NCBI GenBank assembly: GCA_946186495.1
Contig: CAMHNQ010000003.1
Span: forward strand, 32,599-96,598
Length of the DNA: 64,000 nt
Reading direction: 5' to 3'
Source of the DNA: an uncultured Bacteroidales bacterium
GTDB lineage: Bacteria; Bacteroidota; Bacteroidia; Bacteroidales; WCHB1-69
This document shows positions 4,473 to 59,430 of the stretch, one piece after another. How positions within the stretch are numbered: position 1 is the stretch's first letter; every line of letters starts with the position of its first letter. A program made the position numbers and the translations under genes. The notes under the pieces are model-generated. The model did not search any database and was not told the DNA's origin. It saw only the letters and a list, made by a program, of their open reading frames with translations.

Positions 4473-4575
4473 TTGAGTCCACCTGAAAAAGTCAAAATTG
4501 ACGATTTTTTTGCTTGTAACACATTGACAATCAAATATTGGTTTTAATGAAAACCACTTTTTCAAGTGGACTCAA
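4473..4575. mobile_element. 103-bp MITE-like element with 20-bp terminal inverted repeats, copy 1
   Basis: TTGAGTCCACCTGAAAAAGT ... ACTTTTTCAAGTGGACTCAA. A second copy at 27469-27571 differs at 1 of 103 positions. Confidence 0.6.
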
Positions 4576-11204: not shown

Positions 11205-11218
11205 AACTAACTTATTTA

Positions 11219-12688: not shown

Positions 12689-12701
12689 TGTCTTTGTCAA
12701 A

Positions 12702-12730
12702 GGTTTTAGGTTATGGTTATGGTGGTTTAT
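12702..12730 (-). repeat. GGTTAT(G) tandem repeats in the ftsI/murE spacer
   Basis: ggttttaggttatggttatggtggtttat, 14 nt 5' of the murE ATG on the mRNA strand. Confidence 0.5.
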
Positions 12731-12735
12731 ACGAT

Positions 12736-15000: not shown

Positions 15001-15403
15001 GCTTGCGCTCCTTTCTTTTAAACCAACGACGTTTCTGCACGGGTTTCGGGGTCTCCTTGACCGTGAAGTTGTGCTTCTCGTCCGTGATGAAGCCTCTTTC
15101 CTGCATCCTCTGGATGAGGATCTTGTTCTTTTCGTACGGAATAAACTGGTTGTTAGCCTTCAGCTTGCTGATTTCCGCCTTATACGTGTTTTCGAGTTCA
15201 ACAATCCTTTTCAGCTTCATGCTGATCCGTTGCTCGCTAATCACCAGCAGCGTGACGAGCACGATGACAAAGAAAAAGTAGAAATACCACGGGCGCATCT
15301 GTTTTTTCGCCAATATCTCGCCTCCGAAGATATTGGAGAAAAACCTGCCGAACCCGGTTTTCTCCGGTTGCTGCTCCCTGTTGGTTTTAGATGTTGTTTC
15401 CAT
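14987..15403 (-). CDS. FtsL-like small bitopic cell-division protein
   Basis: 138 aa with a single TM (WYFYFFFVIVLVTLLVI) followed by a coiled-coil-like segment. Slot between rsmH and ftsI, overlapping both neighbours. Confidence 0.6.
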   Translation of the reverse strand: METTSKTNREQQPEKTGFGRFFSNIFGGEILAKKQMRPWYFYFFFVIVLVTLLVISEQRISMKLKRIVELENTYKAEISKLKANNQFIPYEKNKILIQRMQERGFITDEKHNFTVKETPKPVQKRRWFKRKERKHEDQ

Positions 15404-16310
15404 GACTGACCGGTATTATCTTCTCCGCCACGCGCAGTTTGGCGCTGCGCGCGCGGGGGTTATTGCTAATCTCTTCTGAATCGGGCTGCACTGCCTTGCG
15501 CGTTATCAACTTGAAAGGCGTTTGCGGATTGCCGTAGAAATCCTTCTTCACCTCACCGTCCAAGTTGCCCGCCCGCATGAAGTTCTTCACCATGCGGTCT
15601 TCCAAAGAATGGTAGGAAATCACCGCCAGCCGTCCGCCAACCTTCAACGCGTCAACGGATTGCGCCAGGAAAGCCTCCAGGGCTTCCATTTCCTGGTTGA
15701 CCTCAATGCGGATAGCCTGGAAAATTTTGGAAAGGGTCTTGTTCTCCTTGCCGCGCAGCAACGCGGGCTCCAACACACCGGCAAGCTGACGGGTGGTGGC
15801 GATGGGCTGCCCTGTCCGGGCTTTCACAATGCGCCGCGCCAGGGCACGGCCGTCCGGAAGCTCGCCGTAGCGATAGAAAATCCGGCTCAAGGCCTGTTCG
15901 TCATACTGGTTGACAACCTCTTGCGCCGACAACCCCGTCTGCCGGTTCATGCGCATGTCCAAAGCCCCGTCCTCCCGATAGGAGAAACCGCGCTCCGGCG
16001 TGTCGAACTGGTGCGAGGAAACCCCAAGGTCCGCCAGGATACCGTCAACGGGGAAGGCCTGATGATATTTCAGGAAACGGTTGAGGTTCTTGAAATTGGA
16101 GGGAACAAAGGTGAACCGTTCGTCGGCAATGAGACGCGCCTGCACGTCCGCGTCCTGGTCGAACGCGACGAGACGGCCGCAGCCGAGCCTGCCGAGGATC
16201 TCGCGCGAATGTCCTCCTCCGCCGTAGGTGACATCCACATAAACACCATCAGGGTTCGCAACCAAATAATCTACAGACAGTTGACATAGCACAGGGTTAT
16301 GATATTCCAT
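15387..16310 (-). CDS. rsmH: 16S rRNA (cytosine1402-N4)-methyltransferase
   Basis: MEYHNPVL...DVTYGGGGHS...ISYHSLEDR pattern. 307 aa. Confidence 0.95.
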   Translation of the reverse strand: MEYHNPVLCQLSVDYLVANPDGVYVDVTYGGGGHSREILGRLGCGRLVAFDQDADVQARLIADERFTFVPSNFKNLNRFLKYHQAFPVDGILADLGVSSHQFDTPERGFSYREDGALDMRMNRQTGLSAQEVVNQYDEQALSRIFYRYGELPDGRALARRIVKARTGQPIATTRQLAGVLEPALLRGKENKTLSKIFQAIRIEVNQEMEALEAFLAQSVDALKVGGRLAVISYHSLEDRMVKNFMRAGNLDGEVKKDFYGNPQTPFKLITRKAVQPDSEEISNNPRARSAKLRVAEKIIPVSHGNNI

Positions 16311-16779
16311 CAGAGCCCTCCTTTTCCGCTATATAGTGACCGAGGTGCATCTCCTCGTTGAGTTTCTCCAGATCCTCAGGACTCATGTCGAACTTCTCGT
16401 GATACTTCTTGCTGTTCCACATCTCTATCTGTCCATTATCCAGAAGCATGACCAGCTCCTTGTCGATGGAATAGATATCCATCAACGGCTTTGGGATCAC
16501 GATCCGGTCTTGGGCGTCGCACTCCACCATTGCAGTGTTGCGCAAGAAGGCGTTTCGATAAAGCTTCACCCGGGTCAGGTTCCGGTCCAGGGAGTTCATG
16601 TAGTCCATCTGCTTCCGGTAGGCTTTCTCGGACCAAAGCATGATGTACTCGCCGAAACCATGCGTGACATAGAACGTCTTCCGCTCATCCTCCGGCAACG
16701 AACGCAGCAAGCCCGTGGGCAGCTTCAGCCGTCCGCTCTTCTCAATCGAGACTTCCCAATATCCGTATTCCGTTGTCAT
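16297..16779 (-). CDS. mraZ: transcriptional regulator MraZ
   Basis: Two SpoVT/AbrB-like halves (GRLKLP, DRIVIP). ATG 16779 (MTTEYGYWE) is chosen; the track extension to 16944 covers the promoter region. Confidence 0.85.
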   Translation of the reverse strand: MTTEYGYWEVSIEKSGRLKLPTGLLRSLPEDERKTFYVTHGFGEYIMLWSEKAYRKQMDYMNSLDRNLTRVKLYRNAFLRNTAMVECDAQDRIVIPKPLMDIYSIDKELVMLLDNGQIEMWNSKKYHEKFDMSPEDLEKLNEEMHLGHYIAEKEGSDGIS

Positions 16780-16810
16780 TCTATACTTTATATCACGCAA
16801 TTCAAGACGA

Positions 16811-16818
16811 CAAAAATA
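16811..16818 (-). promoter_or_regulatory. -7 box TATTTTTG upstream of mraZ
   Basis: TAnnTTTG match 31 nt upstream of ATG 16779. Confidence 0.45.
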
Positions 16819-17144
16819 TAATTTTTCCAAACCTAATTTCCACAAGCGCAGACAAAATAAACAATTGTTAGTTAAAACTATATGTATCATATTGATATTC
16901 AGCAAGGAAATAAATGGAAAAAAGTTATGAACACATTTCAACAAAAACCATAAACATCTGGAAAGAAGTTTCTTACAGCAACCCTATTGAAAAAACCGTT
17001 ATCCTATTGATTTTCTGTTGATTCCATATCATCTATAAAAAACAGCCGTACAAAATGGGAATCCCGGGAGAGCCAGTATGGAAAATTATGGAAGCCTCTG
17101 GAACGTGACGGAAAGCCACCGCTGTCTGGTTCCCCAAAAAATAC

Positions 17145-17152
17145 TATCTTTG
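17145..17152 (+). promoter_or_regulatory. -7 box TATCTTTG upstream of hflX
   Basis: TAnnTTTG match 35 nt upstream of ATG 17188. Confidence 0.45.
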
Positions 17153-17187
17153 CCGTTCTTATTTGGAGACCCCTTTAAAAGAGACAT

Positions 17188-18378
17188 ATGGCGATAGAAT
17201 ACCCTGACAATTACCGTGAGACGGCCGTGCTGATTGCCGTCTCGACCCCCGACGTGGCAGAGGAAAAGACAATGGAGTACCTCGACGAGCTGGCTTTCTT
17301 GGTGGAGACTGCGGGCGGCGTATGCGTGCAGAAGTTCATCCAGAACCTGGCCCACCCTGACACGCGCACCTATTTCGGTTCCGGAAAAATCCGCGAAGTG
17401 GCCGACTACGTGCACCAGCACGACATCGACATGGTGGTGGTGGACGACGAGCTCCCCCCCTCACAGCAGCGCAACATCGAGCAGCTCGCGAAATGCAAGG
17501 TGATGGACCGCACGCACCTCATCCTCGACATCTTCGCCAAACATGCGCAGACCGCCCATGCCAAGACGCAGGTGGAGCTGGCGCAGTACAAATACCTGCT
17601 CCCGCGCCTTACCGGCATGTGGACACACTTGGAGAAACAGCGCGGCGGCATCGGCATGAGGGGACCCGGCGAGAAGGAGATCGAGACCGACCGCCGCATC
17701 ATTCGCGACCGTATCTCTCTGTTGGAAAAGCGGTTGAAAGACATTGACCGACAGAAGAAAACCCAACGCGGTCACCGCGAGCAGTTCGTCCGCGTGGCCC
17801 TCGTGGGTTACACCAACGTCGGGAAATCGACCATCATGAACTTGCTCAGCAACTCCGAGGTCCTTGTGGAGAACAAGCTCTTCGCCACCCTCGACACCAC
17901 CGTCCGCAAGGTCGTGTTCCAGAACCTGCCGTTCCTGCTCTCCGACACGGTAGGCTTCATCCGCAAGCTGCCCCACGGACTGGTGGAGTCGTTCAAGTCC
18001 ACCCTCGACGAAGTCCGCGAGACGCACCTGCTGCTGCACGTGGTCGACATCAGCCACCCCGACTTCGAGGAGCAGATCCAGACCGTGCAGAAGACGTTGG
18101 ACGAAATCCATTGCGGCGACAAGCCCACCGTCATCATCTTCAACAAGATAGACCAATACTCCTGGGTGGAGAAAGCCGAAGACGACCTCACCCCGAAGAC
18201 CAAGGAGAACATCACACTCGACGAGCTCAAAGCCACCTGGATGGCGAAACTCGGCCCGAAAACCCTCTTCATTTCCGCCAAGACAAAGGAAAACGTGAAC
18301 GAAATGAAGGACTTCCTGTACGAGGAAATCAAAAAGCTGCACATCCAGATCTATCCGTACAATAATTTCCTGTATTAG
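17188..18378 (+). CDS. hflX: GTPase HflX
   Basis: HflX N-terminal domain, then G1 GYTNVGKST, G3 DTVGF, G4 NKID. 396 aa. Confidence 0.95.
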   Translation: MAIEYPDNYRETAVLIAVSTPDVAEEKTMEYLDELAFLVETAGGVCVQKFIQNLAHPDTRTYFGSGKIREVADYVHQHDIDMVVVDDELPPSQQRNIEQLAKCKVMDRTHLILDIFAKHAQTAHAKTQVELAQYKYLLPRLTGMWTHLEKQRGGIGMRGPGEKEIETDRRIIRDRISLLEKRLKDIDRQKKTQRGHREQFVRVALVGYTNVGKSTIMNLLSNSEVLVENKLFATLDTTVRKVVFQNLPFLLSDTVGFIRKLPHGLVESFKSTLDEVRETHLLLHVVDISHPDFEEQIQTVQKTLDEIHCGDKPTVIIFNKIDQYSWVEKAEDDLTPKTKENITLDELKATWMAKLGPKTLFISAKTKENVNEMKDFLYEEIKKLHIQIYPYNNFLY

Positions 18379-18496
18379 AATCCCACAAGGGATGCAAACC
18401 CGATGCGTGCCAACCCTGGGCAAATATCGTGAGTCTTGGGACAGGTGCCAGCGGGATGCCCCGCCCCCTTGTTCATCGGCGAAGCGCGACAGACCT

Positions 18497-21400
18497 TCAG
18501 CAGCAACGGACCGCACTCGTGCCGTGGCTCACGGGCTGCACGACGATCTTCGTCGGAATCTTCTCGGCCAAAGCATCCAAATGACTGATAATTCCGATGT
18601 TACAGTGTACAATATGATGAAGTTGCTGCAAGGTGTTCACCACGCTGTCGCACAAACTGCTATCCAACTGGCTGATGCCCTCGTCGATGAAGAGGAAGTC
18701 GGAGGAGATGCCCTGAAGGGCGAGATTGGAGAGGCCTAACGCGAGGGCGATGGAGATGAGGAAACCCTCACCGCCTGAGACCATCTCCACAGGCCGCGGG
18801 GCCCCGTCCATGTACTTGTCTTTCACCAGTATCATCAGTTCACGGCCTGCCCCGGTGAGTTCGTATCGGTCGGACAGCATCGACAGAAAATAGTTGGTGT
18901 TGTCGAGAAGCTTCTGGAGGATGAAGCTCTGTGCAATCTTGCGGAACGTCTTGCCGGTGCTGTCGCCGAAGAGGTTGTTGAGCCGTTCCCACTGCCGGAC
19001 CTGCTGCTGCAACGTGTCCAATTTCGCCAACGTGTCGGCGTATTTCCGCTTGTTGTCGGCATCTTGTTGCAAAATCTGCTGGATTTGCCCGATCTGCTGC
19101 AACTTCGCCGACTTCTGCTCTCCTTTTTGGGAAATCTGCCGCTCTATGTCGGAGAGTTGCTCGTTGTCTCCAAACTCCGGCTTCGACTCCTCGTGTTTAC
19201 GCAGGATTTCCTGCGACTGCTGCCATTTGCCGAGGGCAGTCTGGGCTTGCTCTTGCGCCGCCTTCAGCCGGTCTCTCATTCGGGCAATCTCTTCGGAGGT
19301 TATGTCGACCAGTTCCGTCAACTTCTGCTCCGGGATTTCCGGATGCATCATGTAAAAATTGTGAAGAGTCTCTTCCGTTTGAGCCTTTCTCGCAGACAGT
19401 TCCGACTTCTTTTGCGACAAAACAGCGCAGTTTTCTGCCAACTGCATCCATTTTTCCGCCAAATGCGGGATTTTTTCCCCTTCTGTCGCAGACTGCCATA
19501 CGAACAACGACGACACTTTCTTTTCGAAGGCCTGCATCTGATTCAGTTCGAGTTGTCCTTTCTCGGCCGTTGCTTGGCGGTTTTCCAGATCTTCCTTGCA
19601 CTTTTCGCAGGCTTTAGCCTCTTGCTCAAGTCTTTTGGCCGTCGCAAGCGGTTTCGTCTCCCATTCCGGGTAAATGTCGCTGAAATATCCGGACAATTCC
19701 ACTTTGAGCGTTTCGACATTTTGTGAAGTATGCGCTATTTGATCTTGCAGACTATCCAGCGACTTTTGCGCAGAAACGAGATTCACTTCCGCCTGATGCC
19801 TGTCTGATGTCAGCTTTTCCAACTGTTTGCCTTGGGCCGAAAGCATGTCCGTTTTCCCGGCCAACTCTTTGTTGATCAGAAGCGCCTCCTGGATCTGACG
19901 GGCGACACCCTGGGCTGCCGAATCAACATTGCTTATTTGATTCTCGATCTGTTTGTCAATAGTTTTATCCACCGTGATGTTCAGTGTCCGGCAGACTTCG
20001 CCCAAGGCCGTCAATGCGGTTTTCTGCTGCTGCGATTTCTTTTGGAAATCCTTTTGCGCGACTTCCAAGCTTGCCTGCGCACGGCCCAGGTCAGTGCTGA
20101 TGATGTCCACCGCCTTTTTACGGTCCGAAACAGCCTTGTTTGCTTCGCCAAGTTGTTGTTGCAACCTTTTCACACTTTGTTCAACGGCTTCATTCGTAAG
20201 CAGTTGCTCTACTTTTTGTCCGCAAACGGGACAGTGGTCGCCCACGTGGAGACTTGCGCGGACTTGCTTGGCGAAATCATTGACGCTCTGCGCCGCTGAT
20301 TCGTAGCACTTCTGTGCAGTCTCCTGAACCGCCTGGGCCGCCGAAAAACGCTGTTGCGCCTCCTCGAATTGTTTGTTCAGTTCCTGAACCCGCTGTTGTT
20401 GCATTGTCACCGCACCTTTTATCCCTACGATTTCATCCTGCTGGTCCCTCAGCTCGCGAACCGACTTCCACACATTCTCCAACTTGTTCTGCAGATTCGT
20501 CATCTCGGTCTGCTTCCGAGTGAGTTCCGCCAAATCGAATTGCTGCACCTTTGTTTTCAGCGTTTCCGTCTCCCGTGTGAGCTGGGCGATGGCTTCTTGC
20601 TGACGATCTATCTCCTGCTTTTTTGTCTCCAACGCCTCCCCGTATTGTCCGAGCAAGGCCGCCGCAGCCTTGCTTTTTTCTTCCGCCTGAGACAACTCTT
20701 GTTGCAAACGGACGAAATGGCCGAGTTTTTCACTCAGAACAGGTGACTTGGCATAAATATCCGCCTTGTAAGCCAGGGATTTCAATTCGTTTTGGAATTT
20801 TTCGATTTCGATGTAAGAACACGCCAATTGTTCCTGTTCATACCGCGTACCGGCTGTAAGCATCCGATAATCACTCTGGCACTGTTGCTCTGATTCCTGA
20901 AGAAGATTGGAATCCCGACGAAGTTGCAGCAATTCGGTGTAGGTTTTGCGTGCCTTCTCCGTTTTTTCCCAAAGTCGTACGGTTTCCTGCGCACGAAGGT
21001 GCTTTTCGGATTTTGTCACTGCGTCGGCGGCGGACCACTGCGTTTCAGAATTTCTTACATTCTCCTGATATTGAGCTAATTGTTTAATCCATGTGGATTT
21101 GTTTGCCAACACTTTCATCTCATGGTCAATCTGTTTGTCCTCCGCATCTGCCACTTGGATATTCCTCTGATATTCTGCTATTTGCTCCTCGTCTAACCGC
21201 ACCACATTCTCATTCTCGCTATAGAGCTGGTCGTAAGCCCTCTTTTGGGCATTGTATTTCTCGTAGATCCGCCTTCCAATCTCCGAAAATATACTCGTAT
21301 CCGTCAATTTTTCCAATATTTCGGCCTTTGCGTTCTGGTCGCTCTTCATAAACTTGGTGAACTCGCCCTGAGCCAGCATGGTAGTGCGACAGAACTGTTC

Positions 21401-21907: not shown

Positions 21908-23095
21908 TTACAGGGATTGTTCCGATCTGACTTCTTGTATTACAGAATGTAGCAGTTCTTTTAGTGTATCATCCATATCTGTCTGGATTGTATTGGTGAA
22001 ATATCGTTCGGCGATTTCAAAAGGATCTTTTTCACGAAACTCCGTAAGGTTGAAGTCGGGTTTCTCCATCCTTGTTTTGCCATCGGAATGCAATCGCGTG
22101 ACTTTGTAGTCGCAGTAGAGCAGCCCCTCCCCGCGTTCGAGGAGGCTCCGGACACGGTTCTCCGTGTCGGAGGGCAGCCGTTCCGACGAGAGGACATTAA
22201 GCTGCACATATCCTTGTTCTTGAGGAAGATGCGACTCCAGAAAATCTAATGCCTCCTCTAAAGGCTTCGGTTCGGTAGGCAGCACATAGAACTGCCGCAA
22301 GGGTTTCAGTGCGAGCGTTTCTATCTTCGGCATGTCCCCGTGACGGTCAACCGTCACCATGGTCACCGAGTGCGTGAACTGCTCCTTGAAATTGAGCTGC
22401 ACCGGGCTGCCGCAGTAGCGGGCTTTGCCGTTCGGGAGGGTCTGCGGGGTATGGATATGCCCCAAGGCGAAGTAGTCGTAGTCATCGTCGACATCGTCGA
22501 GACTCATGCTGTTGATGCCGCCCACGATATCCCGCCCGTTGAAGTTGGCGGTTTCGTGAGCCGTGAAAATGGCGTTGCCCACGGTGGTGTGACCCATCAG
22601 GATTACGGGAAGCCCTTGCGGGTTCCTGCGGCGGATTTCCTTCAGGATAATATTGTACAAATCGTTCTGATAGTCGGGAATGTAGGGCACTGCGGCCACC
22701 CACCCTTTGCCGGGAATCCCGATGATGTGCTTGTCGAGAAGGTATTCGTCGCCGGCTTTCTCCACCGCACCCACAAAGCAGGTGTTCACCCGCCGCCACA
22801 CGCCCGACATGCTCTCCACCCGCGAGCTGCTGTCGTGGTTGCCTGCGGTGAGGACAAGGAGCATTTCCGGTGCCAAGTCACAGATACGCAGCAGATTGTC
22901 AGACAGGAAGCGCATGGAGTTGTTACTCGGAGTGTTCTTGTCATAGAGGTCACCACTGACCACTAGAACGTCAGGACGCTCCCGCCGGATGATGTCGCAA
23001 AGTTGGTCGAAGAAATAGCGGTGTTCCTCCTGCCGGTCATAATGGAAGTTGAACACCTGGCCGATATGCCAATCTGAAGTATGGAGAATTTTCAT
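21908..23095 (-). CDS. sbcD: SbcD/Mre11-like nuclease subunit
   Basis: MKILHTSDWHIG, GDLYD, GNHD and GHIH phosphoesterase motifs. ATG 23095 is preferred over the TTG at 23125. Confidence 0.9.
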   Translation of the reverse strand: MKILHTSDWHIGQVFNFHYDRQEEHRYFFDQLCDIIRRERPDVLVVSGDLYDKNTPSNNSMRFLSDNLLRICDLAPEMLLVLTAGNHDSSSRVESMSGVWRRVNTCFVGAVEKAGDEYLLDKHIIGIPGKGWVAAVPYIPDYQNDLYNIILKEIRRRNPQGLPVILMGHTTVGNAIFTAHETANFNGRDIVGGINSMSLDDVDDDYDYFALGHIHTPQTLPNGKARYCGSPVQLNFKEQFTHSVTMVTVDRHGDMPKIETLALKPLRQFYVLPTEPKPLEEALDFLESHLPQEQGYVQLNVLSSERLPSDTENRVRSLLERGEGLLYCDYKVTRLHSDGKTRMEKPDFNLTEFREKDPFEIAERYFTNTIQTDMDDTLKELLHSVIQEVRSEQSL

Positions 23096-23132
23096 GCCAT
23101 GGAATTTCAGACGGCAAAGATACAATTTTAAT

Positions 23133-23160
23133 GGTTATGGGTTATTGGTTATGGGTTATG
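23133..23160 (-). repeat. four tandem heptamers GGTTAT(G/T) abutting the IS end
   Basis: ggttatg ggttatt ggttatg ggttatg, followed immediately by the IS terminal repeat at 23163. Confidence 0.65.
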
Positions 23161-23162
23161 GG

Positions 23163-23761
23163 CAGGGCTTACGTATCAACTTTTTTATTTGGGCGAGCCA
23201 GCGCGGATTAGGAGACGACGCTTCCAAGCGTCGCAATGCATACGCCGGCGATTCATCCAACCGCTGATATGCAGTGCCTGTCACGGTCGGCGAATATGTG
23301 TTTCGTACAAAATATGGAAACAAAGCTTTTTGATTGTTTCAAGGACCTGGAGGACCCGCGCAGGCTCACCCACATCCTGCATCCCGCCCGCAACATTATC
23401 TACATCGCGTTCGCTGCCAACTTCAACGCAGCCTGCAAGATAGCCGTAGCACTGCTCATCCACGACGGCTATGACCACGGCAAGAAAAAACTCTCCATAA
23501 GGCGCAAAATGAACAAGGCTATACTCAACCAGAAATACCTGGAGCATCTGCTGTCGATGTTGTAGCCGTCAAACACACAGCACCTGTTTTTTGTCACCCG
23601 TAACCGCTTGAAAATCAGCAAGTGCTGATTCGGCGTGCTTTTTTTGCGAAAAAAAGGCTTCAAATGCAGCTAAAAGGCAAAAAAAACGGCTAACGCCACA
23701 ACATGATGCGGCTCAATGCTCTGACACTTGGTTGTTTGGACGAGTTGATGCGTAAGCCCTG
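23163..23761 (+). mobile_element. internally deleted ISAs1-family element (599 bp) retaining both terminal inverted repeats
   Basis: Left end CAGGGCTTACGTATCAACT (23163-23181) against right end AGTTGATGCGTAAGCCCTG (23743-23761), 1 mismatch. Encloses an 83-codon transposase remnant. Confidence 0.6.
23314..23565 (+). pseudogene. ISAs1-family transposase remnant (N- and C-termini fused, catalytic core deleted)
   Basis: METKLFDCFKDLEDPRRLTHILHPARNIIYIAFAA matches the N-terminal DPR...H.L..I pattern of ISAs1 transposases. SIRRKMNKAILNQKYLEHLL resembles their C-terminus. Only 83 aa. Confidence 0.6.
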
Positions 23762-23854
23762 TGTGAATAACGAAGCGGGGGGTGACAGGGAGCGGGGGGA
23801 CGGACGCTGGTTGTGCCGGGAGGGGGACGCGCCAATGGCCTGCCCCCTGACAGC

Positions 23855-26194
23855 CTAAACCACCTCTATCGTGCCTTTGTTCGCATTCATTCTGACATGG
23901 TCGCCGTTCTTCAGCAGTTTCGTGGCACCCTTGACATTGACCACGGCTGGCAGTCCGTATTCCCGTGCGACAACAGCCCCGTGCGACAAGGAGGAGCCGA
24001 TTTCGGTAATCAGCCCGTTGACGATGGAATAGTAAGGGGTCCAGCCGATGTCCGTGAATCTTGCCACCATAATCTCGCCTTTCTTCAGCTGATTCGCATC
24101 ATCGATGGAATAGACCAGATGAACCACCCCTTCGCACTGGCCGTTGGAGACTGGGACACCTTTCAGCACACCTTCACTCTGGCCGATGTCCAGGGCATCC
24201 GGCACCGGCTTGCCGATATAGACATCGTCGAAAGAAAGCTCCTCCTGGATGGCATAAGCCTTCCGCCTTCTGACGGCCAAGGGCACGAGAATCGTGTCGC
24301 CGCCGATAAGCCGGCCGATTTCGTCATGTGTCAGGAAATAGATCAAATCGGCATCGGGAATCATGCCGTCAGCCACCAAGAGACGTGCCAGACGGGCATA
24401 CTGTGTCTTGAAAATATCGATGATTTCTATCAAACGGGATTTCGTGTACTCACGATCCACGACAGCCTGCCGGGACTTCTTGGCGAAACTGATGGAGACA
24501 GCCTTCAACAGAGGGCTTTTGATGAAGGAAAACTCGTCCCGAAGGTCAAGATCGCTCCCTCCTTGGACGAGACTCATCGGCGACCTGATGATGCTCTGCA
24601 GATAGTTCATAAGCGGGAGTTCGTCCTCCCTCCACGGCTTGTTCCTCAACTCCGCCTCCTTGATGCACCGATGGCCATGGCGTTCAATGAATGTCCGGTA
24701 ATTCGCGGCAATCTCCGCATCGCCCCTGATGTATTCCAACAGCTGCCCGGACGTGTAACCGACAGCTTCCGGCCTCCGCTCTTTGATCTGTCGCGCCAAA
24801 TCCTGCAACCGCGACAATATATCGGCACTCTCAATATCCGGAATGTTCGACAACAGGTGAGACAAAAACGACTGATACTCCTTTTTGTCAGGAAAATATT
24901 TGTCCAACAGCCGGTAAAGTGTGCTGGACGCGCTACCGGAATAGGAGGACGAGGCGTAATGGTAGATGAGACTCTCGTCAAGATAGGCGAGGTTGTCATT
25001 GATGTTTCTGTACAGTTCCTGTCCGGAAGAGGTTTCGGGGAATTGAATCTTGGGCAGCAGATCGTCAAGCTTCTTCATCGCGCGGTTCCCGGAGAGCACA
25101 TAATGGAGGAACTTCACGGAATTGACGGTGCGCACGAAGGGATTGGCGAACGGGACGGAGACGGGCGGGCAATCGTAGTATTCGCCCATGATGGACAAAT
25201 TCATCGACTGGGGGTCCGCGACGGCGACTTTCGCGTTCATATTGTACAGCAGGTTCATGTCGAAGAACAGGTGTCCGGAGATGGAAGAGATCAGTCTCAG
25301 GGGTTTCTCTTCAAAGGGCGACTTATATGCGCCGGCCTTGTAGAGCATGTAGCGCATGCCGTAGTCGATGGCTTTCGCCGAGGTCGAAAGAGTCAGCGGG
25401 GTGACCGCTCCCGGCATCATTTCACCGACATTCCTCTTGGTGAACAGATGTCCGCTCAAATCCTCATCCCGGTCGAACTCTTCAATGTCAACGACCTCAG
25501 TCGTGACAGGGCGCATCTGCAGCAGGAACAACACCCCGTCTTTCATGGCCCACTCAAGGTCCTGCTCGCCGCCGAAAATTTTCCGGGCGTTTTTTGCCGT
25601 CTCATACAGCCGTTTGACCTCGTCATCCGCAAGCAGGTCATCGCCGCAGGGCCGGTAACACTTGCGGGATATCTCGTAACGGTGGGCGCTGGCCTGCCCG
25701 GAGACCAGGCGCTCGCCCTGCCCGGCCACCGCCTCTATCAATATGGCCGAGCCGTTATTCGGACTGGCCGTGAAAAGAACTCCAGCCTTGTCGCTGTCAA
25801 CCATCTCTTGGACAACGACATTCATCGTCCCAGTCCCCAAGTCAAAATGCCGGGCATAATCCTTCACCCTACGGGTGTTCAAGGACTCCAGGCATTTTCT
25901 CACGCTCTCAACAAGATGCTGGCGGTCAACAAACAGGCAGGTTTCATATTGGCCTGCGTTGGAAGCCTCCGTCTGATCCTCGTTCGAGGCTGAAGAGCGC
26001 ACCGACACCAGCCCCGCACCCAGCGTGTCGAATGCCTGATACAGTGGCTCTTCCTCTATCTGGTCGATTTGTGTGACGACAAAACCCCTGGGAACTTTGA
26101 AATTGTGCCTGACCAGCTGGTCCAATCCCTTTGCCTTTCCTCCAACAGTCTGATACACCGTCTCGGGCAACTTCCCCAACTGATATATTTTCAT
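23855..26194 (-). CDS. PEP-utilising phosphotransferase, rifampin-phosphotransferase (RPH)-like three-domain architecture
   Basis: N-terminal PPDK_N/ATP-grasp pattern (VGGKAKGL, VRSSASNED, DLEWAMKDG..LLQMRPVT). Central NVGEMMPGAVTPLTLS segment as in RPH substrate domains. C-terminal swivel His domain (GSSLSHGAVVAREYGLPAVV). 779 aa. Confidence 0.8.
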   Translation of the reverse strand: MKIYQLGKLPETVYQTVGGKAKGLDQLVRHNFKVPRGFVVTQIDQIEEEPLYQAFDTLGAGLVSVRSSASNEDQTEASNAGQYETCLFVDRQHLVESVRKCLESLNTRRVKDYARHFDLGTGTMNVVVQEMVDSDKAGVLFTASPNNGSAILIEAVAGQGERLVSGQASAHRYEISRKCYRPCGDDLLADDEVKRLYETAKNARKIFGGEQDLEWAMKDGVLFLLQMRPVTTEVVDIEEFDRDEDLSGHLFTKRNVGEMMPGAVTPLTLSTSAKAIDYGMRYMLYKAGAYKSPFEEKPLRLISSISGHLFFDMNLLYNMNAKVAVADPQSMNLSIMGEYYDCPPVSVPFANPFVRTVNSVKFLHYVLSGNRAMKKLDDLLPKIQFPETSSGQELYRNINDNLAYLDESLIYHYASSSYSGSASSTLYRLLDKYFPDKKEYQSFLSHLLSNIPDIESADILSRLQDLARQIKERRPEAVGYTSGQLLEYIRGDAEIAANYRTFIERHGHRCIKEAELRNKPWREDELPLMNYLQSIIRSPMSLVQGGSDLDLRDEFSFIKSPLLKAVSISFAKKSRQAVVDREYTKSRLIEIIDIFKTQYARLARLLVADGMIPDADLIYFLTHDEIGRLIGGDTILVPLAVRRRKAYAIQEELSFDDVYIGKPVPDALDIGQSEGVLKGVPVSNGQCEGVVHLVYSIDDANQLKKGEIMVARFTDIGWTPYYSIVNGLITEIGSSLSHGAVVAREYGLPAVVNVKGATKLLKNGDHVRMNANKGTIEVV

Positions 26195-27207
26195 CTCTTG
26201 ATATTTTTCAGATCCTTTTGGTTAAAATAACGGCTCCGGTCTCCATTAAAACCGATTTCCATAATACCCCGGCAGTTCTTCCCGTCAATCACAAACTCCG
26301 CGACATTCTCGTGCAGGACATATTGCCCGTTCTGAAAATGGTAGGTGACGCCCGCCAAGGGTTTGGAGAGAACATGCATCCTCCGTCCGTCGTCCAGGTC
26401 CACATTCAGCGACAATTCGCGGGGGACGGTTCCGAAGCTGACCTGACGGAGATCCAGATCGGCCCGCCGGAGATAGCGCTGCCCGTCTTCGTCACGGCAA
26501 TTACCTACCTCCAGCACCGTCATCACCGGATAGGAGACCATGGAGTAGTTGAACTGGAGAGATGGGGAGACCGCCATGAGCCAAAGATGGTTGTTCATAT
26601 AGTTCCAGTCGCGTCGCCCGAACGAATGGTCGCGCACACAGGGAAGTTGGAAACGGTACGTTCTGCCATTCAGGACCATTTGGCCTTCCAGGACGCCTTC
26701 CTGCTCATAATGGCACTGGCCGCTGACATTCTGCAACTCCCCGAAGAACGCCCTGCTCCACTTCTCGTTGGCAATGCCCGCTGCCATTCTCTCGGCAGGC
26801 ATGTCGCTTGTGAAATCGACAGGCTTCTGCGTGGCGACAAAGGTCGCATCGAAAGCGACTTGGTCGCTCTCGTTCAGCAGGCCATGGAAAGAGACCCCCC
26901 AGCGGTCGCCATTTTTCTCCACGACGACCGGAGATTGCCCGCTCGGGAACGTCTCCTGTTTCAACGAATACAGTTCACCCCCGATGAAGAGGGCAAACCA
27001 CGCCTCGTCCACGCCAGCCCTCCTGCCCAAGCGTGCGAAGAGGGACATCTCCTCGCCATGTGCTGAGAAATAATAGGAGTTATTCACCATCGGGTCTCTG
27101 ATGCCCTCTATCGAAAAACTCTCGGCAAACCGGTAATCAAAGGGATTTTGTCTGTTCCTTTTGCCGATAGCCTTGCTCATCAGAAACTTTTTCAAATTGT
27201 ACAACAT
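26191..27207 (-). CDS. hypothetical protein co-transcribed with the RPH-like gene
   Basis: 338-aa ORF whose stop overlaps the downstream start by 4 nt. No signal peptide. Family not recognised. RDHSFGRRDW is faintly reminiscent of CrtC/AttH-like beta-barrel proteins (low confidence). Confidence 0.65.
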   Translation of the reverse strand: MLYNLKKFLMSKAIGKRNRQNPFDYRFAESFSIEGIRDPMVNNSYYFSAHGEEMSLFARLGRRAGVDEAWFALFIGGELYSLKQETFPSGQSPVVVEKNGDRWGVSFHGLLNESDQVAFDATFVATQKPVDFTSDMPAERMAAGIANEKWSRAFFGELQNVSGQCHYEQEGVLEGQMVLNGRTYRFQLPCVRDHSFGRRDWNYMNNHLWLMAVSPSLQFNYSMVSYPVMTVLEVGNCRDEDGQRYLRRADLDLRQVSFGTVPRELSLNVDLDDGRRMHVLSKPLAGVTYHFQNGQYVLHENVAEFVIDGKNCRGIMEIGFNGDRSRYFNQKDLKNIKR

Positions 27208-27246
27208 AAAGAAGCCTTAATCTATGAGACACAATCCTTTTTTTGG

Positions 27247-27254
27247 CAAAATTA
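27247..27254 (-). promoter_or_regulatory. -7 box TAATTTTG (second match TATTTTTG at 27262-27269)
   Basis: TAnnTTTG matches 39 and 54 nt upstream of ATG 27207. Confidence 0.4.
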
Positions 27255-27310
27255 AAGTCGGCAAAAATAAAAAAATCATCAATGTTTTCGACACATCGTT
27301 CCCTTATACC

Positions 27311-27461
27311 CAGGGTTTACGCATCAACTTTTTTATTTGGGCGAGCCAGCGCGGATTAGGAGACGACGCTTCCAAGCGTCGCAATGCATACGCCGGCGAT
27401 TCATCCAACCGCTGATATGCAGTGCCTGTCACGGTCGGCGAATATGTGTTTTGTACAAAAT
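27311..27461 (+). mobile_element. solo left end (151 bp) of the same ISAs1-like element
   Basis: Collinear with 23163-23313 with 3 mismatches. Ends exactly where the transposase ATG would start. Confidence 0.65.
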
Positions 27462-27468
27462 TTAGTTA

Positions 27469-27571
27469 TTGAGTCCACCTGAAAAAGTCAAAATTGACGA
27501 TTTTTTTGCTTGTAACACATTGACAATCAAATATTAGTTTTAATGAAAACCACTTTTTCAAGTGGACTCAA
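27469..27571. mobile_element. 103-bp MITE-like element, copy 2
   Basis: Same TIRs as 4473-4575, 1 mismatch in 103 bp. Begins 7 bp after the IS fragment. Confidence 0.6.
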
Positions 27572-27775
27572 AATTTTATTTCAGAAAGACAACTTGGGCA
27601 GCTTGGACAATTTGGACAACAAAGAATCCATTCCTGCTTTTTTTTCATCTGCAGGTCCCTGTGTGGGGTGGGTCGGCTGGGAGTGTGGCTGCGTTAGGAT
27701 TTCGTGCCTCCGGCACGCCGCGCGGCCGGCAAATGGATATCCTTTTCCGCATGCGGAGTTTGTATGAAAAATGTG

Positions 27776-27803: not shown

Positions 27804-29399
27804 ATGAAAAAGACATTTTTACTGATAGCGGCCGTGCTTATAGGGTTCGCACTTCGGGCGCAAAGTGCCGCAGACATAGAGTCGGACGGCATGGAGTGCA
27901 CCTCCATCACCGTCGGGAAAAAGGCATCGGCGGACGGGTCTGTGATGACCTCTCACACCGACGACAGCCACCGTACGCGGACGAACATCTACGTGACCCC
28001 CGCCATGGACCACGAGCGTGGGGAGAAAGTGACGATGTATCGTCGGGAATGGGCCAAGAAGCAGATTCCCGGTCAGATGCAGCGCTACGACAACATCCCC
28101 ATCGGGGAGATTCCGGAGGTGGAGCACACCTACCAGTTCCTCAACACGGCCTACCCCTGCGTCAACGAGGCGCAATTGGCCATCGGGGAGTCGACTTTCG
28201 GAGGCCGCCCCGAGCTGAAGTCCGACAGCGGGCTGATCGACTGCCAGCGGCTCTGCCAGCTGCTGCTGCAACGGTGCTGTACGGCTCGCGAGGCCATCGA
28301 GACCGCAGGTGTCCTGCTCAAGAAGTACGGATGGATTGACGCCGGCGAGTGCCTGACCATCGCCGACAAGGACGAGGTGTGGCACCTCGAGATCCTTGGC
28401 CCCGGCAAGGGCAAGCTCGGCGCCGTATGGGCCGCACAGCGCGTGCCCGACGACCACGTAGCCGTCAACGCCAACGCTTCCACCATCCGCGAAATCAACC
28501 TCAAGGACAAGGACTACTTCATGGCTTCGGAGAACGTCCATTCCCTGGCCCGCGAGAACGGCTGGTGGGACGGCAAGGAGCCCTTCCGCTTCGCCTACGC
28601 CTACGCGCCGCAGACCCGCACCATGATGGCCTGCCGCCGCCGCGAATGGCGAGTCTTCGACCTCGTGGCCCCCTCCCTGCACCTCGACCCCAACGCCGAG
28701 AACTTCCCCTTCTCCGTCAAACCCGACACCCTCGTCTCTCTGGAAAAGATGATGAGCATCTTCAAAGACTACTACGAAGGCACTCCCTACGACATGCGCA
28801 AAACACTGACCGTCACCGACAAAGACGGCAAAACCGTCATCTCCCCTATGGCCAACCCCTTCATGAAACTCGACGAGCTGAAGCTGCACCGCATCAATGG
28901 CGGCTGGAACGAACGCGGCGAACGCAGCATCGCCGTCCACTTCACCGTGTACGGCACCATCATCCAATGCCGTAACTGGCTGCCCGACGAGGTGGGCGCC
29001 CTCTGCTGGTTCGCCCTCGACAACGTCGCCTCCTCCATCTACGTGCCCATCTACGCCAACGTCTCCGACCTGCCCGAAACCTACAAGACCGACGGCCGCG
29101 TCACCGGATTCAGCAAAGAGGCCGCCTGGTGGGCCTTCAACCGCGTCGGCACCCTCGCCGCTCAACGGTGGGGCGACATGCACGTCTTGATTGACAAAGC
29201 CTGGGCGCCCATGCAACAAGAATTCATCACTGAGCACCGGGTCATCGAACAGGAAGCCCTGGAACTCATCAACCAGGACCGATATGAGGAGGCCATCCAA
29301 ATACTCACCAACTTCACCGACAACTGCGGCAACGAAGCCGTGGAACGTGCATGGAAACTCGGCGACGAAATATGGACCGCCTTTGACGGCATGTGGTGA
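27804..29399 (+). CDS. secreted C69-family dipeptidase
   Basis: Signal peptide, then CTSITVGKKASADGSVMTSHTDDS (N-terminal Cys nucleophile pattern of peptidase C69). 531 aa. Confidence 0.85.
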   Translation: MKKTFLLIAAVLIGFALRAQSAADIESDGMECTSITVGKKASADGSVMTSHTDDSHRTRTNIYVTPAMDHERGEKVTMYRREWAKKQIPGQMQRYDNIPIGEIPEVEHTYQFLNTAYPCVNEAQLAIGESTFGGRPELKSDSGLIDCQRLCQLLLQRCCTAREAIETAGVLLKKYGWIDAGECLTIADKDEVWHLEILGPGKGKLGAVWAAQRVPDDHVAVNANASTIREINLKDKDYFMASENVHSLARENGWWDGKEPFRFAYAYAPQTRTMMACRRREWRVFDLVAPSLHLDPNAENFPFSVKPDTLVSLEKMMSIFKDYYEGTPYDMRKTLTVTDKDGKTVISPMANPFMKLDELKLHRINGGWNERGERSIAVHFTVYGTIIQCRNWLPDEVGALCWFALDNVASSIYVPIYANVSDLPETYKTDGRVTGFSKEAAWWAFNRVGTLAAQRWGDMHVLIDKAWAPMQQEFITEHRVIEQEALELINQDRYEEAIQILTNFTDNCGNEAVERAWKLGDEIWTAFDGMW

Positions 29400-59344: not shown

Positions 59345-59420
59345 CTGGAAAATCCCCATGCAGGAGGTGCCGCCTGCATTCAGGCAACTTCGAGTTCTTC
59401 CTTGAGGTCCTGTCATGCGG
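59345..59420 (+). pseudogene. relic of the 3' end of a paralog of the 60308-61855 gene
   Basis: attcaggcaacttcgagttcttcc (59378-59401) is identical to 61746-61769. The flanks are roughly 70 percent similar by eye. Confidence 0.6.
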
Positions 59421-59430
59421 CAACAACGCC

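What the first reader, a model, noticed from the sequence alone, without database searches (positions are those of the whole stretch)
23163..27461. IS-bracketed 3.5-kb cassette: RPH-like phosphotransferase operon between two same-orientation IS left ends
The first 151 bp of the mini-IS (23163-23313) recur at 27311-27461 with only 3 mismatches, in the same orientation. Between them lies one operon with its own promoter boxes: a 338-aa unknown protein followed, with a 4-nt overlap, by a 779-aa enzyme. The enzyme has the ATP-grasp / substrate-domain / swivel-His architecture of rifampin phosphotransferases (VRSSASNED, NVGEMMPGAVTPLTLS, SHGAVVAREYG). The flanking genes are unrelated housekeeping genes (sbcDC on one side, a C69 dipeptidase on the other). 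Directly repeated IS sequence allows excision or amplification by homologous recombination, and the context looks like acquired cargo. This may be a small-molecule (possibly antibiotic) phosphorylating module with an uncharacterised partner.
Basis: partly seen in the sequence, partly recalled or inferred. Interest (0 to 1): 0.55.

Follow-up and report, generated by a model that had tools for sequence, protein, structure and literature searches.

The report
IS-flanked kinase plus phospho-lyase gene pair
Decayed insertion-sequence copies flank a conserved two-gene unit that sits between two housekeeping genes in a rumen Bacteroidales genome, and the unit most likely phosphorylates a hydroxyl group and then eliminates the phosphate rather than conferring rifampin resistance.

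Summary
The 151 bp at 23163-23313 recur at 27311-27461 with 3 mismatches, in the same orientation. Between them lies a 338-aa plus 779-aa operon with an ATGA overlap.

The repeats are ends of an ISAs1-family IS. The left copy is a 600-bp internally deleted mini-IS. The right copy is a solo left end interrupted by a 103-nt MITE-like element.

Three related Bacteroidales species have sbcD and the C69 dipeptidase gene directly adjacent, so the roughly 4.4-kb block is an insertion. The same gene pair (76%/65% aa identity) lies at a different, IS-free chromosomal locus in many rumen Bacteroidales. Its base composition looks native, and no homologue of the partner was found on plasmids or viral contigs.

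The 779-aa protein keeps the RPH-type dikinase catalytic residues. It fails the curated cut-offs for RPH, PigC and PEP synthase, and it lacks the rifampin-contact residues.

The "unknown" partner is a remote homologue of 25-phosphosteroid lyase. Its family is always linked to this dikinase in the loci examined. It is fused to the dikinase in some prokaryotes and invertebrates, and fused to an APH/EcKL kinase in a protist.

Best reading: an IS-relocated kinase + phospho-lyase (ATP-driven elimination) module with an unknown substrate.

The parts
23133..23162 (.). GGTTATG x4.3 tandem repeat. It is the sbcD-proximal edge of the original sbcD<>C69 spacer and the left boundary of the inserted block.
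   Evidence: Analogous heptamer arrays occur in the intact spacers of L015 and L016.
23163..23762 (+). Mini-IS, an internally deleted ISAs1-family element. IRL is at 23163-23181 and IRR at 23744-23762. There is no flanking target-site duplication.
   Evidence: Homology to the L020 IS copy stops at 23419, which marks the deletion junction. The transposase N-terminus encoded in L020 hits NF033564 (ISAs1) at 121.7 bits against a cut-off of 70.
23314..23565 (+). 83-aa remnant ORF, apparently a fusion of the transposase N- and C-termini. It is non-functional.
   Evidence: Weak DDE_Tnp_1_assoc match over residues 6-37, E 5e-4, below the cut-off. No NCBIfam hit.
23855..26194 (-). 779-aa RPH-type small-molecule dikinase: ATP-grasp domain, substrate domain with Rph_4th, and a C-terminal His-swivel domain. 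Predicted phosphocarrier is His738.
   Evidence: Pfam PPDK_N and PEP-utilizers. Precomputed PF27448 Rph_4th. Full-length alignment to RPH-Lm 5FBS, E 7e-56, with R66, T85, R581, E582, K585 and H738 conserved.
26191..27207 (-). 338-aa protein related to 25-phosphosteroid lyase (DUF7064/DUF7065, AttH-like double beta-domain). It is translationally coupled to the dikinase by an ATGA overlap. Conserved motif R192-D193-H194-S-F-G197-x-R199.
   Evidence: AF2 model pLDDT 84, pTM 0.85. Foldseek top hits are 9G4C, 9FZN and 9G2I, E 6e-13. Profile hit to 9fzn_A, E 5.6e-7. Column conservation.
27208..27310 (-). 103-bp non-IS spacer upstream of the operon. It carries TAATTTTG (27254-27247) and TATTTTTG -7-type boxes and is the presumed promoter.
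   Evidence: This is a consensus match only. The full TTTG-N17-23-TAnnTTTG pattern is not found here.
27311..27469 (+). Solo left end of a second copy of the same IS. It is in the same orientation as the mini-IS, with its IRL facing the operon.
   Evidence: It matches L020 positions 1743-1585 over 159 nt at 96% identity.
27469..27571 (.). MITE-like element with 20-bp terminal inverted repeats. It interrupts or terminates the solo IS end.
   Evidence: I2; D3. RNA fold z-score -4.56.
4473..4575 (.). Second copy of the same MITE-like element. It is not part of the cassette and is listed for reference.
27588..27620 (.). GACAACTTG x3.7 tandem repeat. It is the C69-proximal part of the original spacer and the right boundary of the inserted block.
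21908..23125 (-). sbcD, the flanking gene. It is directly adjacent to the C69 gene in related species.
27804..29399 (+). C69 family dipeptidase gene, the other flanking gene.

Best explanation
A roughly 4.4-kb block (23163 to about 27580) sits in what was originally a short divergent spacer between sbcD and a C69 dipeptidase gene in an uncultured rumen Bacteroidales bacterium.

The block consists of an ISAs1-family IS copy, now a 600-bp transposase-less mini-IS, then a two-gene operon, then the first 159 nt of a second IS copy in the same orientation, which is cut by a MITE-like element. The operon was carried here by IS activity, either as a composite IS-cargo-IS unit or by recombination between IS copies. 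The IS copies then decayed, so the block can no longer transpose. Only rare homologous recombination across the 151-bp repeats could still delete it.

The cargo is not a classical resistance gene. It is a conserved, self-contained two-enzyme module. The 779-aa RPH-type dikinase would use ATP (giving AMP + Pi) to load phosphate onto His738 of its swivel domain and then transfer it to a hydroxyl group of a probably hydrophobic small molecule. The translationally coupled 338-aa protein, a remote homologue of 25-phosphosteroid lyase, would then eliminate the phosphate to leave a C=C bond. The net reaction is an ATP-driven dehydration.

Shown here: the anatomy, the empty site in relatives, conservation of the pair, the kinase fusions, the conserved catalytic residues, and the fold and profile similarity to 25-PSL.

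Inferred: that IS activity (rather than another route) moved the operon, the chemistry of both steps, the order of the steps, and the class of substrate, which remains unknown.
For: Insertion:
- L015, L016 and L018 keep the same extended synteny (orf422, orf196, acyl-ACP thioesterase, C69 | sbcD, sbcC, orf396), with C69 and sbcD about 95-150 bp apart and no IS, MITE or operon.
- The mini-IS has no target-site duplication, so it did not insert here alone.
- The same structure occurs at 98.6-99.3% nt identity in five other metagenome contigs.

IS family.

Pair conservation:
- Same order and same overlap in rumen Bacteroidales at another locus.
- Adjacent in four distant loci, where the partner is 44, 36 and 31% identical and the dikinase 46, 38 and 41% identical in the three loci measured.
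- Within 2 kb in one further locus.

Fusions:
- Partner-like N-terminus plus dikinase in metagenomic proteins on short contigs (taken here as prokaryotic; organism not confirmed) and in oyster, flatworm and snail proteins.
- Partner-like domain fused to an unrelated APH/EcKL kinase in a protist.

Lyase homology:
- Foldseek top five PDB hits are all 25-PSL, E 6e-13 to 1e-11, TM 0.58-0.60.
- The family profile finds only 25-PSL in the PDB, E 5.6e-7, through collinear motifs. These include RD[HR]S[FWY]GxR, whose Asp is Asn in entry 9G4C. The Asp is D193 here and is conserved in 60 of 67 family representatives.
- 25-PSL itself works downstream of a kinase, 25-HSK (PMC8449060, PMC11061730).

Dikinase competence: the equivalents of R117, T136, R666, E667, K670 and H825 of RPH-Lm are all conserved (PMC4844700).

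Precedent for phosphate as a leaving group in this enzyme family: HapC/PigC (PMC13534948).
Against: - No biochemical data exist for any member of this pair.
- Similarity to 25-PSL is remote, about 15% identity. TM-scores are no better than for AttH, and the same fold includes hydratases and pericyclases.
- Some residues conserved in this family differ in 25-PSL: H166 and E168 align with R and A.
- The kinase partner of 25-PSL is an ADP-forming APH-type enzyme, not a dikinase (PMC8449060).
- No conserved third gene hints at a substrate.
- The donor locus and the mechanism of arrival cannot be reconstructed. Intragenomic relocation cannot be told from transfer from a related Bacteroidales.
- The AF2 model of the dikinase failed.
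Confidence: 0.55

Rival explanations
1. One reading: a horizontally acquired antibiotic-inactivating cassette of the rifamycin or similar type. The RPH-like enzyme phosphorylates the drug. The partner is an accessory protein, or makes inactivation irreversible by eliminating the phosphate.
For: RPH-Lm is the closest solved structure by sequence. The catalytic residues are conserved. IS bracketing and the empty site in relatives are typical of resistance cargo.
Against: - The RPH equivalog models score 249 and 172 bits against cut-offs of 999 and 1700. PEP-synthase-like and PigC models score equally well or better.
- The rifampin-contact residues Q336, Q337 and Y351 are not conserved (PMC4844700).
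- No homologue of the partner was found on 72,556 plasmids or in IMG/VR.
- The pair is chromosomal and syntenic in many MAGs without IS.
- Fused versions occur in invertebrate animals.
- Composition is native-like.
Confidence: 0.1
2. The module is the same coupled kinase plus AttH-fold enzyme, but the chemistry differs. Phosphate could be installed as a leaving group for substitution, cyclisation or condensation, as in PigC/HapC. Alternatively the partner could act first as a hydratase of the CrtC or kievitone-hydratase type, making the alcohol that the kinase then phosphorylates.
For: The AttH-like fold includes hydratases and pericyclases. PigC/HapC use phosphorylation for condensation (PMC13534948), and PigC and RedH models score as well as RPH. 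The residues H166 and E168 conserved in this family differ from 25-PSL.
Against: 25-PSL is the best structural match and the only sequence-profile match. The Asp-containing motif is shared with it. The partner family is fused to two unrelated kinase types, which fits a phosphoester substrate.
Confidence: 0.22
3. The operon is native to this position, and two IS copies simply inserted on either side of it. No relocation took place.
For: All six contigs of this species-level population carry the operon here. Composition is native-like.
Against: - Three related species with the same flanking synteny have no operon at this site.
- Other Bacteroidales carry the pair at a different conserved locus.
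- The mini-IS lacks a target-site duplication.
- The IS ends hug the operon, at about 90 and 103 bp.
Confidence: 0.05
4. The 779-aa protein is a genuine PEP synthase or pyruvate dikinase of central metabolism.
For: Database names such as 'pyruvate, water dikinase' and the PPDK_N and PEP-utilizers domains.
Against: There is no PEP/pyruvate-binding TIM-barrel domain. The His domain is C-terminal, as in RPH. TIGR01418 scores 191 bits against a cut-off of 740.
Confidence: 0.02

Closest known systems
25-hydroxysteroid kinase (25-HSK) plus 25-phosphosteroid lyase (25-PSL) of Sterolibacterium denitrificans (PDB 9FZN, 9G2I, 9G4C; PMC8449060, PMC7411048)
   Same: A two-enzyme logic in which a kinase makes a phosphoester and a lyase eliminates the phosphate. 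The 338-aa protein is the closest structural match to 25-PSL and the only sequence-profile match in the PDB. It shares the RDxSxGxR motif.
   Different: The kinase here is an AMP-forming RPH-type His-swivel dikinase, not an ADP-forming APH-type kinase. Here the two genes overlap, whereas no lyase candidate gene lies near the 25-HSK gene (PMC8449060). Identity to 25-PSL is only about 15%. The host is a fermentative gut anaerobe without the molybdenum steroid hydroxylases of that pathway in view. The substrate is unknown.
Rifampin phosphotransferase RPH (Listeria monocytogenes, PDB 5FBS and 5HV1; PMC4844700)
   Same: Three-domain order of ATP-grasp, substrate-binding domain and C-terminal swivel His. 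The residues for ATP alpha-phosphate binding and phosphotransfer are conserved.
   Different: The protein is about 90 residues shorter. The rifampin-contact residues are not conserved. It scores far below the curated cut-off. It always has a lyase-like partner, which RPH does not have.
PigC / RedH / HapC prodiginine ligases (PMC13534948)
   Same: The same dikinase family and similar HMM scores. They use the transferred phosphate as a leaving group rather than as an inactivating tag.
   Different: There is no prodiginine gene cluster. The curated cut-offs are not met. In PigC the follow-up chemistry happens within the same protein, whereas here a separate AttH-fold enzyme is attached.
HpeHI and MarK aromatic dikinases (PMC12167813, PMC12624787)
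   Same: RPH-family small-molecule dikinases used in catabolism. HpeHI shows that this family can work as a multi-protein system.
   Different: In HpeHI the two proteins are the split halves of the dikinase itself. Here the dikinase is complete and the second protein has an unrelated fold.
IS-bracketed (composite-transposon-like) cargo; ISAs1-family insertion sequences
   Same: Direct-orientation IS copies bracket the cargo closely. Relatives have an empty site. Assemblies break at the repeats.
   Different: Neither copy is intact. There is no outer right end and no target-site duplication. The cargo is a conserved chromosomal module rather than a typical accessory gene.

Membership tests
Rifamycin-inactivating phosphotransferase (RPH; NCBIfam NF041857 / NF000283) | Domain order: ATP-grasp, substrate-binding domain, C-terminal phosphohistidine swivel domain | tested here: met
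   PPDK_N at the N-terminus and PEP-utilizers at residues 704-774. Rph_4th is precomputed. The alignment to 5FBS covers residues 64-778.
Rifamycin-inactivating phosphotransferase (RPH; NCBIfam NF041857 / NF000283) | Catalytic His825 plus R666, E667, K670, R117 and T136 of RPH-Lm | tested here: met
   The equivalents are H738, R581, E582, K585, R66 and T85 (residue roles from PMC4844700).
Rifamycin-inactivating phosphotransferase (RPH; NCBIfam NF041857 / NF000283) | Score at or above the curated equivalog cut-off | tested here: not met
   248.8 bits against 999 for NF041857, and 171.9 against 1700 for NF000283.
Rifamycin-inactivating phosphotransferase (RPH; NCBIfam NF041857 / NF000283) | Rifampin-contacting residues Q336, Q337 and Y351 | tested here: not met
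   These align to G, E and S in the motif NVGEMMPGAVTPLTLS.
Rifamycin-inactivating phosphotransferase (RPH; NCBIfam NF041857 / NF000283) | Phosphorylates rifamycins and confers resistance | not testable with these tools
   Needs expression and MIC or LC-MS assays.
PEP synthase (TIGR01418 / PRK06464) | Central His domain, C-terminal PEP/pyruvate-binding TIM-barrel domain, and score above the cut-off | tested here: not met
   No PEP-utilizers_C domain was found. The His domain is C-terminal. 190.7 bits against a cut-off of 739.75.
Prodiginine ligase PigC / RedH | Score above the equivalog cut-off | tested here: not met
   260 bits against 1300, and 251 against 1350. The neighbouring genes are sbcD and C69.
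25-phosphosteroid lyase-like (AttH-fold) enzymes | Two-beta-domain AttH-like fold, with 25-PSL as the closest structure | tested here: met
   Model pLDDT 84.4, pTM 0.85. Foldseek ranks 1-5 are 25-PSL chains, E 6e-13 to 1e-11, probability 1.00, TM 0.58-0.60.
25-phosphosteroid lyase-like (AttH-fold) enzymes | Detectable sequence homology, including the Asp-containing motif (Asp is Asn in 9G4C) | tested here: met
   Profile A2 against the PDB finds 9fzn_A at E 5.6e-7 through three collinear stretches. The individual stretches are weak, with i-Evalues of 1.4 to 34. RDHSFGxR aligns with RDRSWGVR. D193 is conserved in 60 of 67 representatives. That the D-to-N entry marks a catalytic residue is my inference.
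25-phosphosteroid lyase-like (AttH-fold) enzymes | Works on the product of a dedicated kinase | tested here: inconclusive
   Genetic linkage to a kinase was seen in 7 of 7 genomic contexts, and there are fusions to two kinase classes. Linkage is shown; the flow of substrate is inferred.
25-phosphosteroid lyase-like (AttH-fold) enzymes | Phosphate elimination that yields an alkene | not testable with these tools
   Needs an enzyme assay.
Pfam DUF7064 / DUF7065 (Rv3169-like) | Score at or above the gathering threshold | tested here: inconclusive
   DUF7064 scores 30.6 bits against 24.7, so it is met. DUF7065 scores 21.6 against 27, so it is not met. NCBIfam Rv3169_fam scores 17.4 against 150, so it is not met.
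ISAs1-family insertion sequence | ISAs1 DDE transposase | tested here: inconclusive
   The window copies have none; there is only an 83-aa remnant with a weak DDE_Tnp_1_assoc match at E 5e-4. A 96-97% identical IS end in L020 is followed by a transposase N-terminus that hits NF033564 at 121.7 bits against a cut-off of 70.
ISAs1-family insertion sequence | Terminal inverted repeats | tested here: met
   19-bp repeats, 18 of 19 matching, at 23163-23181 and 23744-23762.
ISAs1-family insertion sequence | Flanking target-site duplication | tested here: not met
   The left flank GTTATGGG and the right flank TGTGAATA do not match.
Composite transposon | Two transposition-competent IS copies with outward-facing ends and a target-site duplication around the whole unit | tested here: not met
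   The left copy lacks a transposase. The right copy is a 159-nt left end only. There is no right outer end and no duplication.

The most novel reading that the evidence does not exclude
The RPH-like 'PEP synthase / rifampicin phosphotransferase' proteins that travel with, or are fused to, a DUF7064/65 domain form an uncharacterised enzyme system. They occur in gut and rumen Bacteroidales and Clostridiales, in some other prokaryotes, and in molluscs and flatworms. In this reading a His-swivel dikinase hands a phosphoester directly to a 25-PSL-like lyase. Together they carry out ATP-driven dehydration (C-O cleavage) of an unactivated, probably tertiary or sterol/isoprenoid-type, alcohol without oxygen or radical chemistry. 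This window would then show that the module can be moved by IS elements.
Probability: 0.35. Interest if true: 0.72.

Novelty: new variant of a known kind. Interest (0 to 1): 0.55.

Why it matters
If the inference holds, three things follow.

1. A set of genes routinely annotated as PEP synthase or rifampicin phosphotransferase, including in rumen resistome surveys and in oyster genomes, would be misnamed. They would belong to a kinase-lyase system instead.
2. The phosphorylation-elimination strategy is so far known from one anaerobic steroid pathway that uses an APH-type kinase. It would prove to be more widespread and to have recruited a second, unrelated kinase type.
3. The module is small, self-contained and easy to express, so the hypothesis can be tested directly.

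The IS part by itself is ordinary. It is a clean example, with an empty site for comparison, of IS-mediated relocation followed by IS decay.

Tried and rejected
- Exact-protein look-ups of the 779-aa protein and of SbcD found nothing. Near-identical contigs were reached through homologue searches instead.
- The AF2 model of the 779-aa protein, built from a shallow alignment of sequences at least 75% identical, was unusable (pLDDT 49.6, pTM 0.33). No fold search was run on it.
- The narrow profile A1 of the partner found nothing in the PDB. Only the broad profile A2 reached 25-PSL.
- Rfam found nothing in the window at gathering threshold.
- The strict Bacteroidetes promoter pattern TTTG-N17-23-TAnnTTTG is absent upstream of the operon. 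Only the -7 box is present.
- Homologues of the partner were not found on plasmids or on viral contigs.
- The 'ancestral' locus seen in other Bacteroidales (M20 peptidase, a 188-aa hypothetical protein, Band_7) is not in this window. Relocation within the genome therefore cannot be told from transfer.
- The closest SbcD relatives, L011 to L014, have a different gene upstream of sbcD and tell us nothing about the empty site.
- GC, GC3 and codon usage do not set the cassette apart from its neighbours.
- Literature searches for DUF7064, DUF7065 or a dikinase-lyase pair found no characterisation. The paper describing the 25-PSL structures is not in the library.

Full report
**1. Observation**

The repeat is real and is exactly as described. 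The 151 bp at 23163-23313 recur at 27311-27461 with three mismatches, in the same orientation. A 40-mer from the repeat occurs only at these two places in the window, against zero expected in shuffles.

The minus strand between the repeats carries a 338-aa ORF (26191-27207) and a 779-aa ORF (23855-26194) that overlap by 4 nt, ATGA. The quoted motifs are all present.

The flanking genes are sbcC and sbcD on one side. On the other side are a C69 dipeptidase and then an acyl-ACP thioesterase.

**2. Anatomy of the IS sequences**

The left element is a 600-bp mini-IS at 23163-23762. It has 19-bp terminal inverted repeats. It also has an 83-aa remnant ORF whose first 32 residues weakly match DDE_Tnp_1_assoc.

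A metagenome scan with a 30-mer from the IS end returned two loci. One of them, L020, carries the same end at 96-97% identity. There the end is followed by a transposase N-terminus that meets the NCBIfam ISAs1 model, 121.7 bits against a cut-off of 70.

Comparison with L020 shows three things:
- The mini-IS has lost about 107 nt upstream of the transposase start codon.
- It has also lost nearly the whole transposase; homology ends at 23419.
- The right-hand copy in the window matches the IS for 159 nt, up to 27469.

At 27469 the right-hand copy runs into a 103-nt element with 20-bp terminal inverted repeats (27469-27571). This element has a second, 98% identical copy at 4473-4575. Beyond it the IS does not resume.

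The mini-IS has no target-site duplication. The structure is therefore IS – cargo – IS stub, and both copies are dead. It does not meet the definition of a composite transposon.

**3. Is the block an insertion?**

Yes. A scan of one genome per GTDB species with SbcD returned nine Bacteroidales MAG loci; those whose sampling source is named come from rumen or gut samples of yak, reindeer and humans.

Three of them (L015, L016, L018) keep the same gene order on both sides: orf422, orf196, thioesterase, C69 | sbcD, sbcC, orf396. In these three, C69 and sbcD sit divergently, about 95-150 bp apart. They have no operon, no IS and no MITE.

Short hepta- to nonamer tandem arrays occupy the intact spacer of L015 and L016. 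In the window, such arrays lie at the two edges of the inserted block, at 23133-23162 and 27588-27620. This places the insertion between them.

The other close relatives (L011-L014) have a different gene upstream of sbcD and are uninformative.

The same IS-bracketed structure occurs at 98.6-99.3% nt identity in five other contigs, four of them from separate metagenome samples. Several of these contigs end inside the IS sequences, as expected for a multicopy repeat. No cassette-free allele of this species was recovered.

**4. Where else is the operon?**

The pair occurs at 76% (dikinase) and 65% (partner) aa identity, in the same order and with the same overlap, in many rumen Bacteroidales MAGs. 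There it lies at another, conserved locus between an M20 peptidase/188-aa gene and a Band_7 gene, without IS.

That locus is not in this window. GC, GC3 and codon usage of the two genes are typical of the window. No homologue of the partner was found on plasmids or on viral contigs.

So the block was moved by IS activity. Whether it moved within the genome or came from a related Bacteroidales cannot be decided here.

**5. The 779-aa protein**

Pfam finds PPDK_N and a C-terminal PEP-utilizers swivel domain. The collection's precomputed annotation adds Rph_4th.

The closest solved structure by sequence is Listeria rifampin phosphotransferase, E 7e-56, aligned over almost the whole length. The RPH-Lm residues shown by mutagenesis or structure to be important are R117, T136, R666, E667, K670 and the phosphocarrier H825 (PMC4844700). 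They correspond to R66, T85, R581, E582, K585 and H738 here. The enzyme is therefore very probably an active ATP-dependent His-swivel dikinase.

It does not qualify as an RPH:
- It scores 249 bits against a cut-off of 999.
- Mis-named 'PEP synthase' subfamilies (about 280 bits), PigC (260) and RedH (251) score as well or better. All are far below their cut-offs.
- The rifampin-contact residues Q336, Q337 and Y351 align to G, E and S.

It is not a PEP synthase either. It has no PEP/pyruvate-binding domain, its His domain is C-terminal, and it scores 191 bits against a cut-off of 740.

**6. The 338-aa partner**

Pfam gives only DUF7064, just above threshold, and DUF7065, below threshold.

An AlphaFold2 model from 32 homologues is confident, with pLDDT 84 and pTM 0.85, and is all-beta with two domains. 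In a Foldseek search of the PDB, the five best hits are all chains of 25-phosphosteroid lyase (25-PSL; 9G4C, 9FZN, 9G2I; E 6e-13 to 1e-11; TM 0.58-0.60). Next come the AttH-like protein 2ICH, fungal pericyclases and kievitone hydratase.

An exhaustive search of 1.84 billion cluster representatives found only 291 relatives. A profile built from 67 diverse relatives hits 25-PSL, and nothing else meaningful, in the PDB (E 5.6e-7). The hit runs through three collinear stretches, each weak on its own. One stretch aligns RDHSFGxR with RDRSWGVR. Entry 9G4C carries Asn at that Asp. I take this to mark a catalytic residue, and that is my inference. The Asp is D193 here and is conserved in 60 of 67 representatives. 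It sits among several conserved Arg and His residues (R59, R63, R192, H194, R199, H207), which would suit a phosphate site.

25-PSL eliminates phosphate from a tertiary steroid phosphoester made by the kinase 25-HSK. The net result is an ATP-dependent dehydration (PMC7411048, PMC8449060, PMC11061730).

**7. Linkage of partner and kinase**

In four distant loci the partner gene is immediately followed by a 790-812-aa dikinase with PPDK_N, Rph_4th and PEP-utilizers domains. One of these loci is named Clostridiales. The others are unnamed, with GC from 32 to 52%. In the three measured, the partner is 44, 36 and 31% identical and the dikinase 46, 38 and 41% identical. In a fifth locus the two genes are 2 kb apart. 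No third gene recurs in these neighbourhoods.

Within the partner family there are fusion proteins:
- A partner-like N-terminus plus a complete dikinase, in the same order as the genes. This occurs in metagenomic proteins on short contigs, taken here as prokaryotic, and in oyster, flatworm and snail proteins. For the oyster protein the BLASTP values are 1e-23 and 6e-110 for the two halves.
- An APH/EcKL-type kinase fused to a partner-like domain in a protist.

25-HSK is itself described as a 'phosphotransferase family' protein (PMC8449060). Association of one fold with two unrelated kinase classes is the strongest argument that this fold acts on the kinase product.

**8. Mechanism proposed**

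The dikinase takes the beta-phosphate of ATP onto His738, giving AMP + Pi. The swivel domain carries it to the substrate domain, where R581, E582 and K585 assist transfer to a hydroxyl group. The 338-aa enzyme binds the phosphoester and eliminates phosphate, with D193 as the likely base or acid and the Arg/His cluster holding the phosphate.

Translational coupling and the natural fusions suggest a complex that hands over a labile intermediate. PigC/HapC is a precedent in this dikinase family for using phosphate as a leaving group (PMC13534948).

The fold relationship suggests a hydrophobic substrate, and 25-PSL suggests a steroid- or isoprenoid-like one. Nothing here identifies the substrate.

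**9. Rivals**

- A resistance cassette remains possible, at about 0.1. It lacks specific support and has several points against it.
- A different chemistry on the same coupled module (substitution, cyclisation, or hydratase first) cannot be excluded, at about 0.2.
- 'Native operon with IS inserted around it' is contradicted by the empty sites.

**10. Verdict**

The IS story is ordinary. The interesting part is that the cargo appears to be an uncharacterised dikinase + phospho-lyase module, a new variant of the 25-HSK/25-PSL logic. It has a wide but sparse distribution and is currently annotated under misleading names. Interest 0.55.

Noticed in passing
window 4473-4575 and 27469-27571: A 103-nt MITE-like element with 20-bp terminal inverted repeats (TTGAGTCCACCTGAAAAAGT). 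The two copies are 98% identical. It forms a strong hairpin (z -4.56) and has no Rfam match. One copy sits inside the solo IS end.
   Followed up: partly
window 23133-23162 and 27588-27620; L015 and L016 C69<>sbcD spacers: Short tandem arrays (GGTTATG x4.3; GACAACTTG x3.7) flank the insertion point. Analogous hepta- to octamer arrays fill the intact spacer in related species. They may be a regulatory or variable feature of the divergent sbcD/C69 promoters.
   Followed up: partly
window 54435-54560 and 54792-54984: Arrays of 33-nt tandem repeats, apparently coding and rich in Ser, Thr and Pro codons.
   Followed up: no
window 59378-59434 / 61746-61802 and 60170-60250 / 62138-62218: Two pairs of 77% identical segments spaced 2.0-2.4 kb apart. 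They suggest tandem paralogous genes with a conserved upstream region.
   Followed up: no
proteins P0351/P0495 (Magallana gigas XP_065929472.1), P0381 (Macrostomum lignano), P0366 (Bulinus truncatus): Invertebrate proteins annotated 'rifampicin phosphotransferase' or 'phosphoenolpyruvate synthase' are fusions of a 25-PSL-like N-terminal domain with an RPH-like dikinase. The database names are probably misleading.
   Followed up: partly
protein P0368 (Artemidia motanka transcriptome): An APH/EcKL-type kinase domain is fused to a DUF7065/25-PSL-like domain. This is a second, independent kinase-lyase fusion.
   Followed up: partly
L027 1-7035: In this one lineage the partner gene and the dikinase gene are separated by an HTH regulator gene and a ferredoxin-like gene. 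The dikinase gene is followed by two NAD-binding SDR/epimerase genes, which could hint at further substrate processing.
   Followed up: no
L020 1050-1743: The only longer copy of the IS that was recovered is itself truncated after about 140 codons of the ISAs1 transposase. No intact copy of this IS was seen.
   Followed up: partly
L019 (Hadza gut MAG) 10001-21181: In this more distant relative the C69-thioesterase-orf196 block lies downstream of sbcC instead of upstream of sbcD. In L011 and L012 sbcD has a co-directional upstream gene. The sbcD upstream boundary therefore seems prone to rearrangement in this clade.
   Followed up: partly
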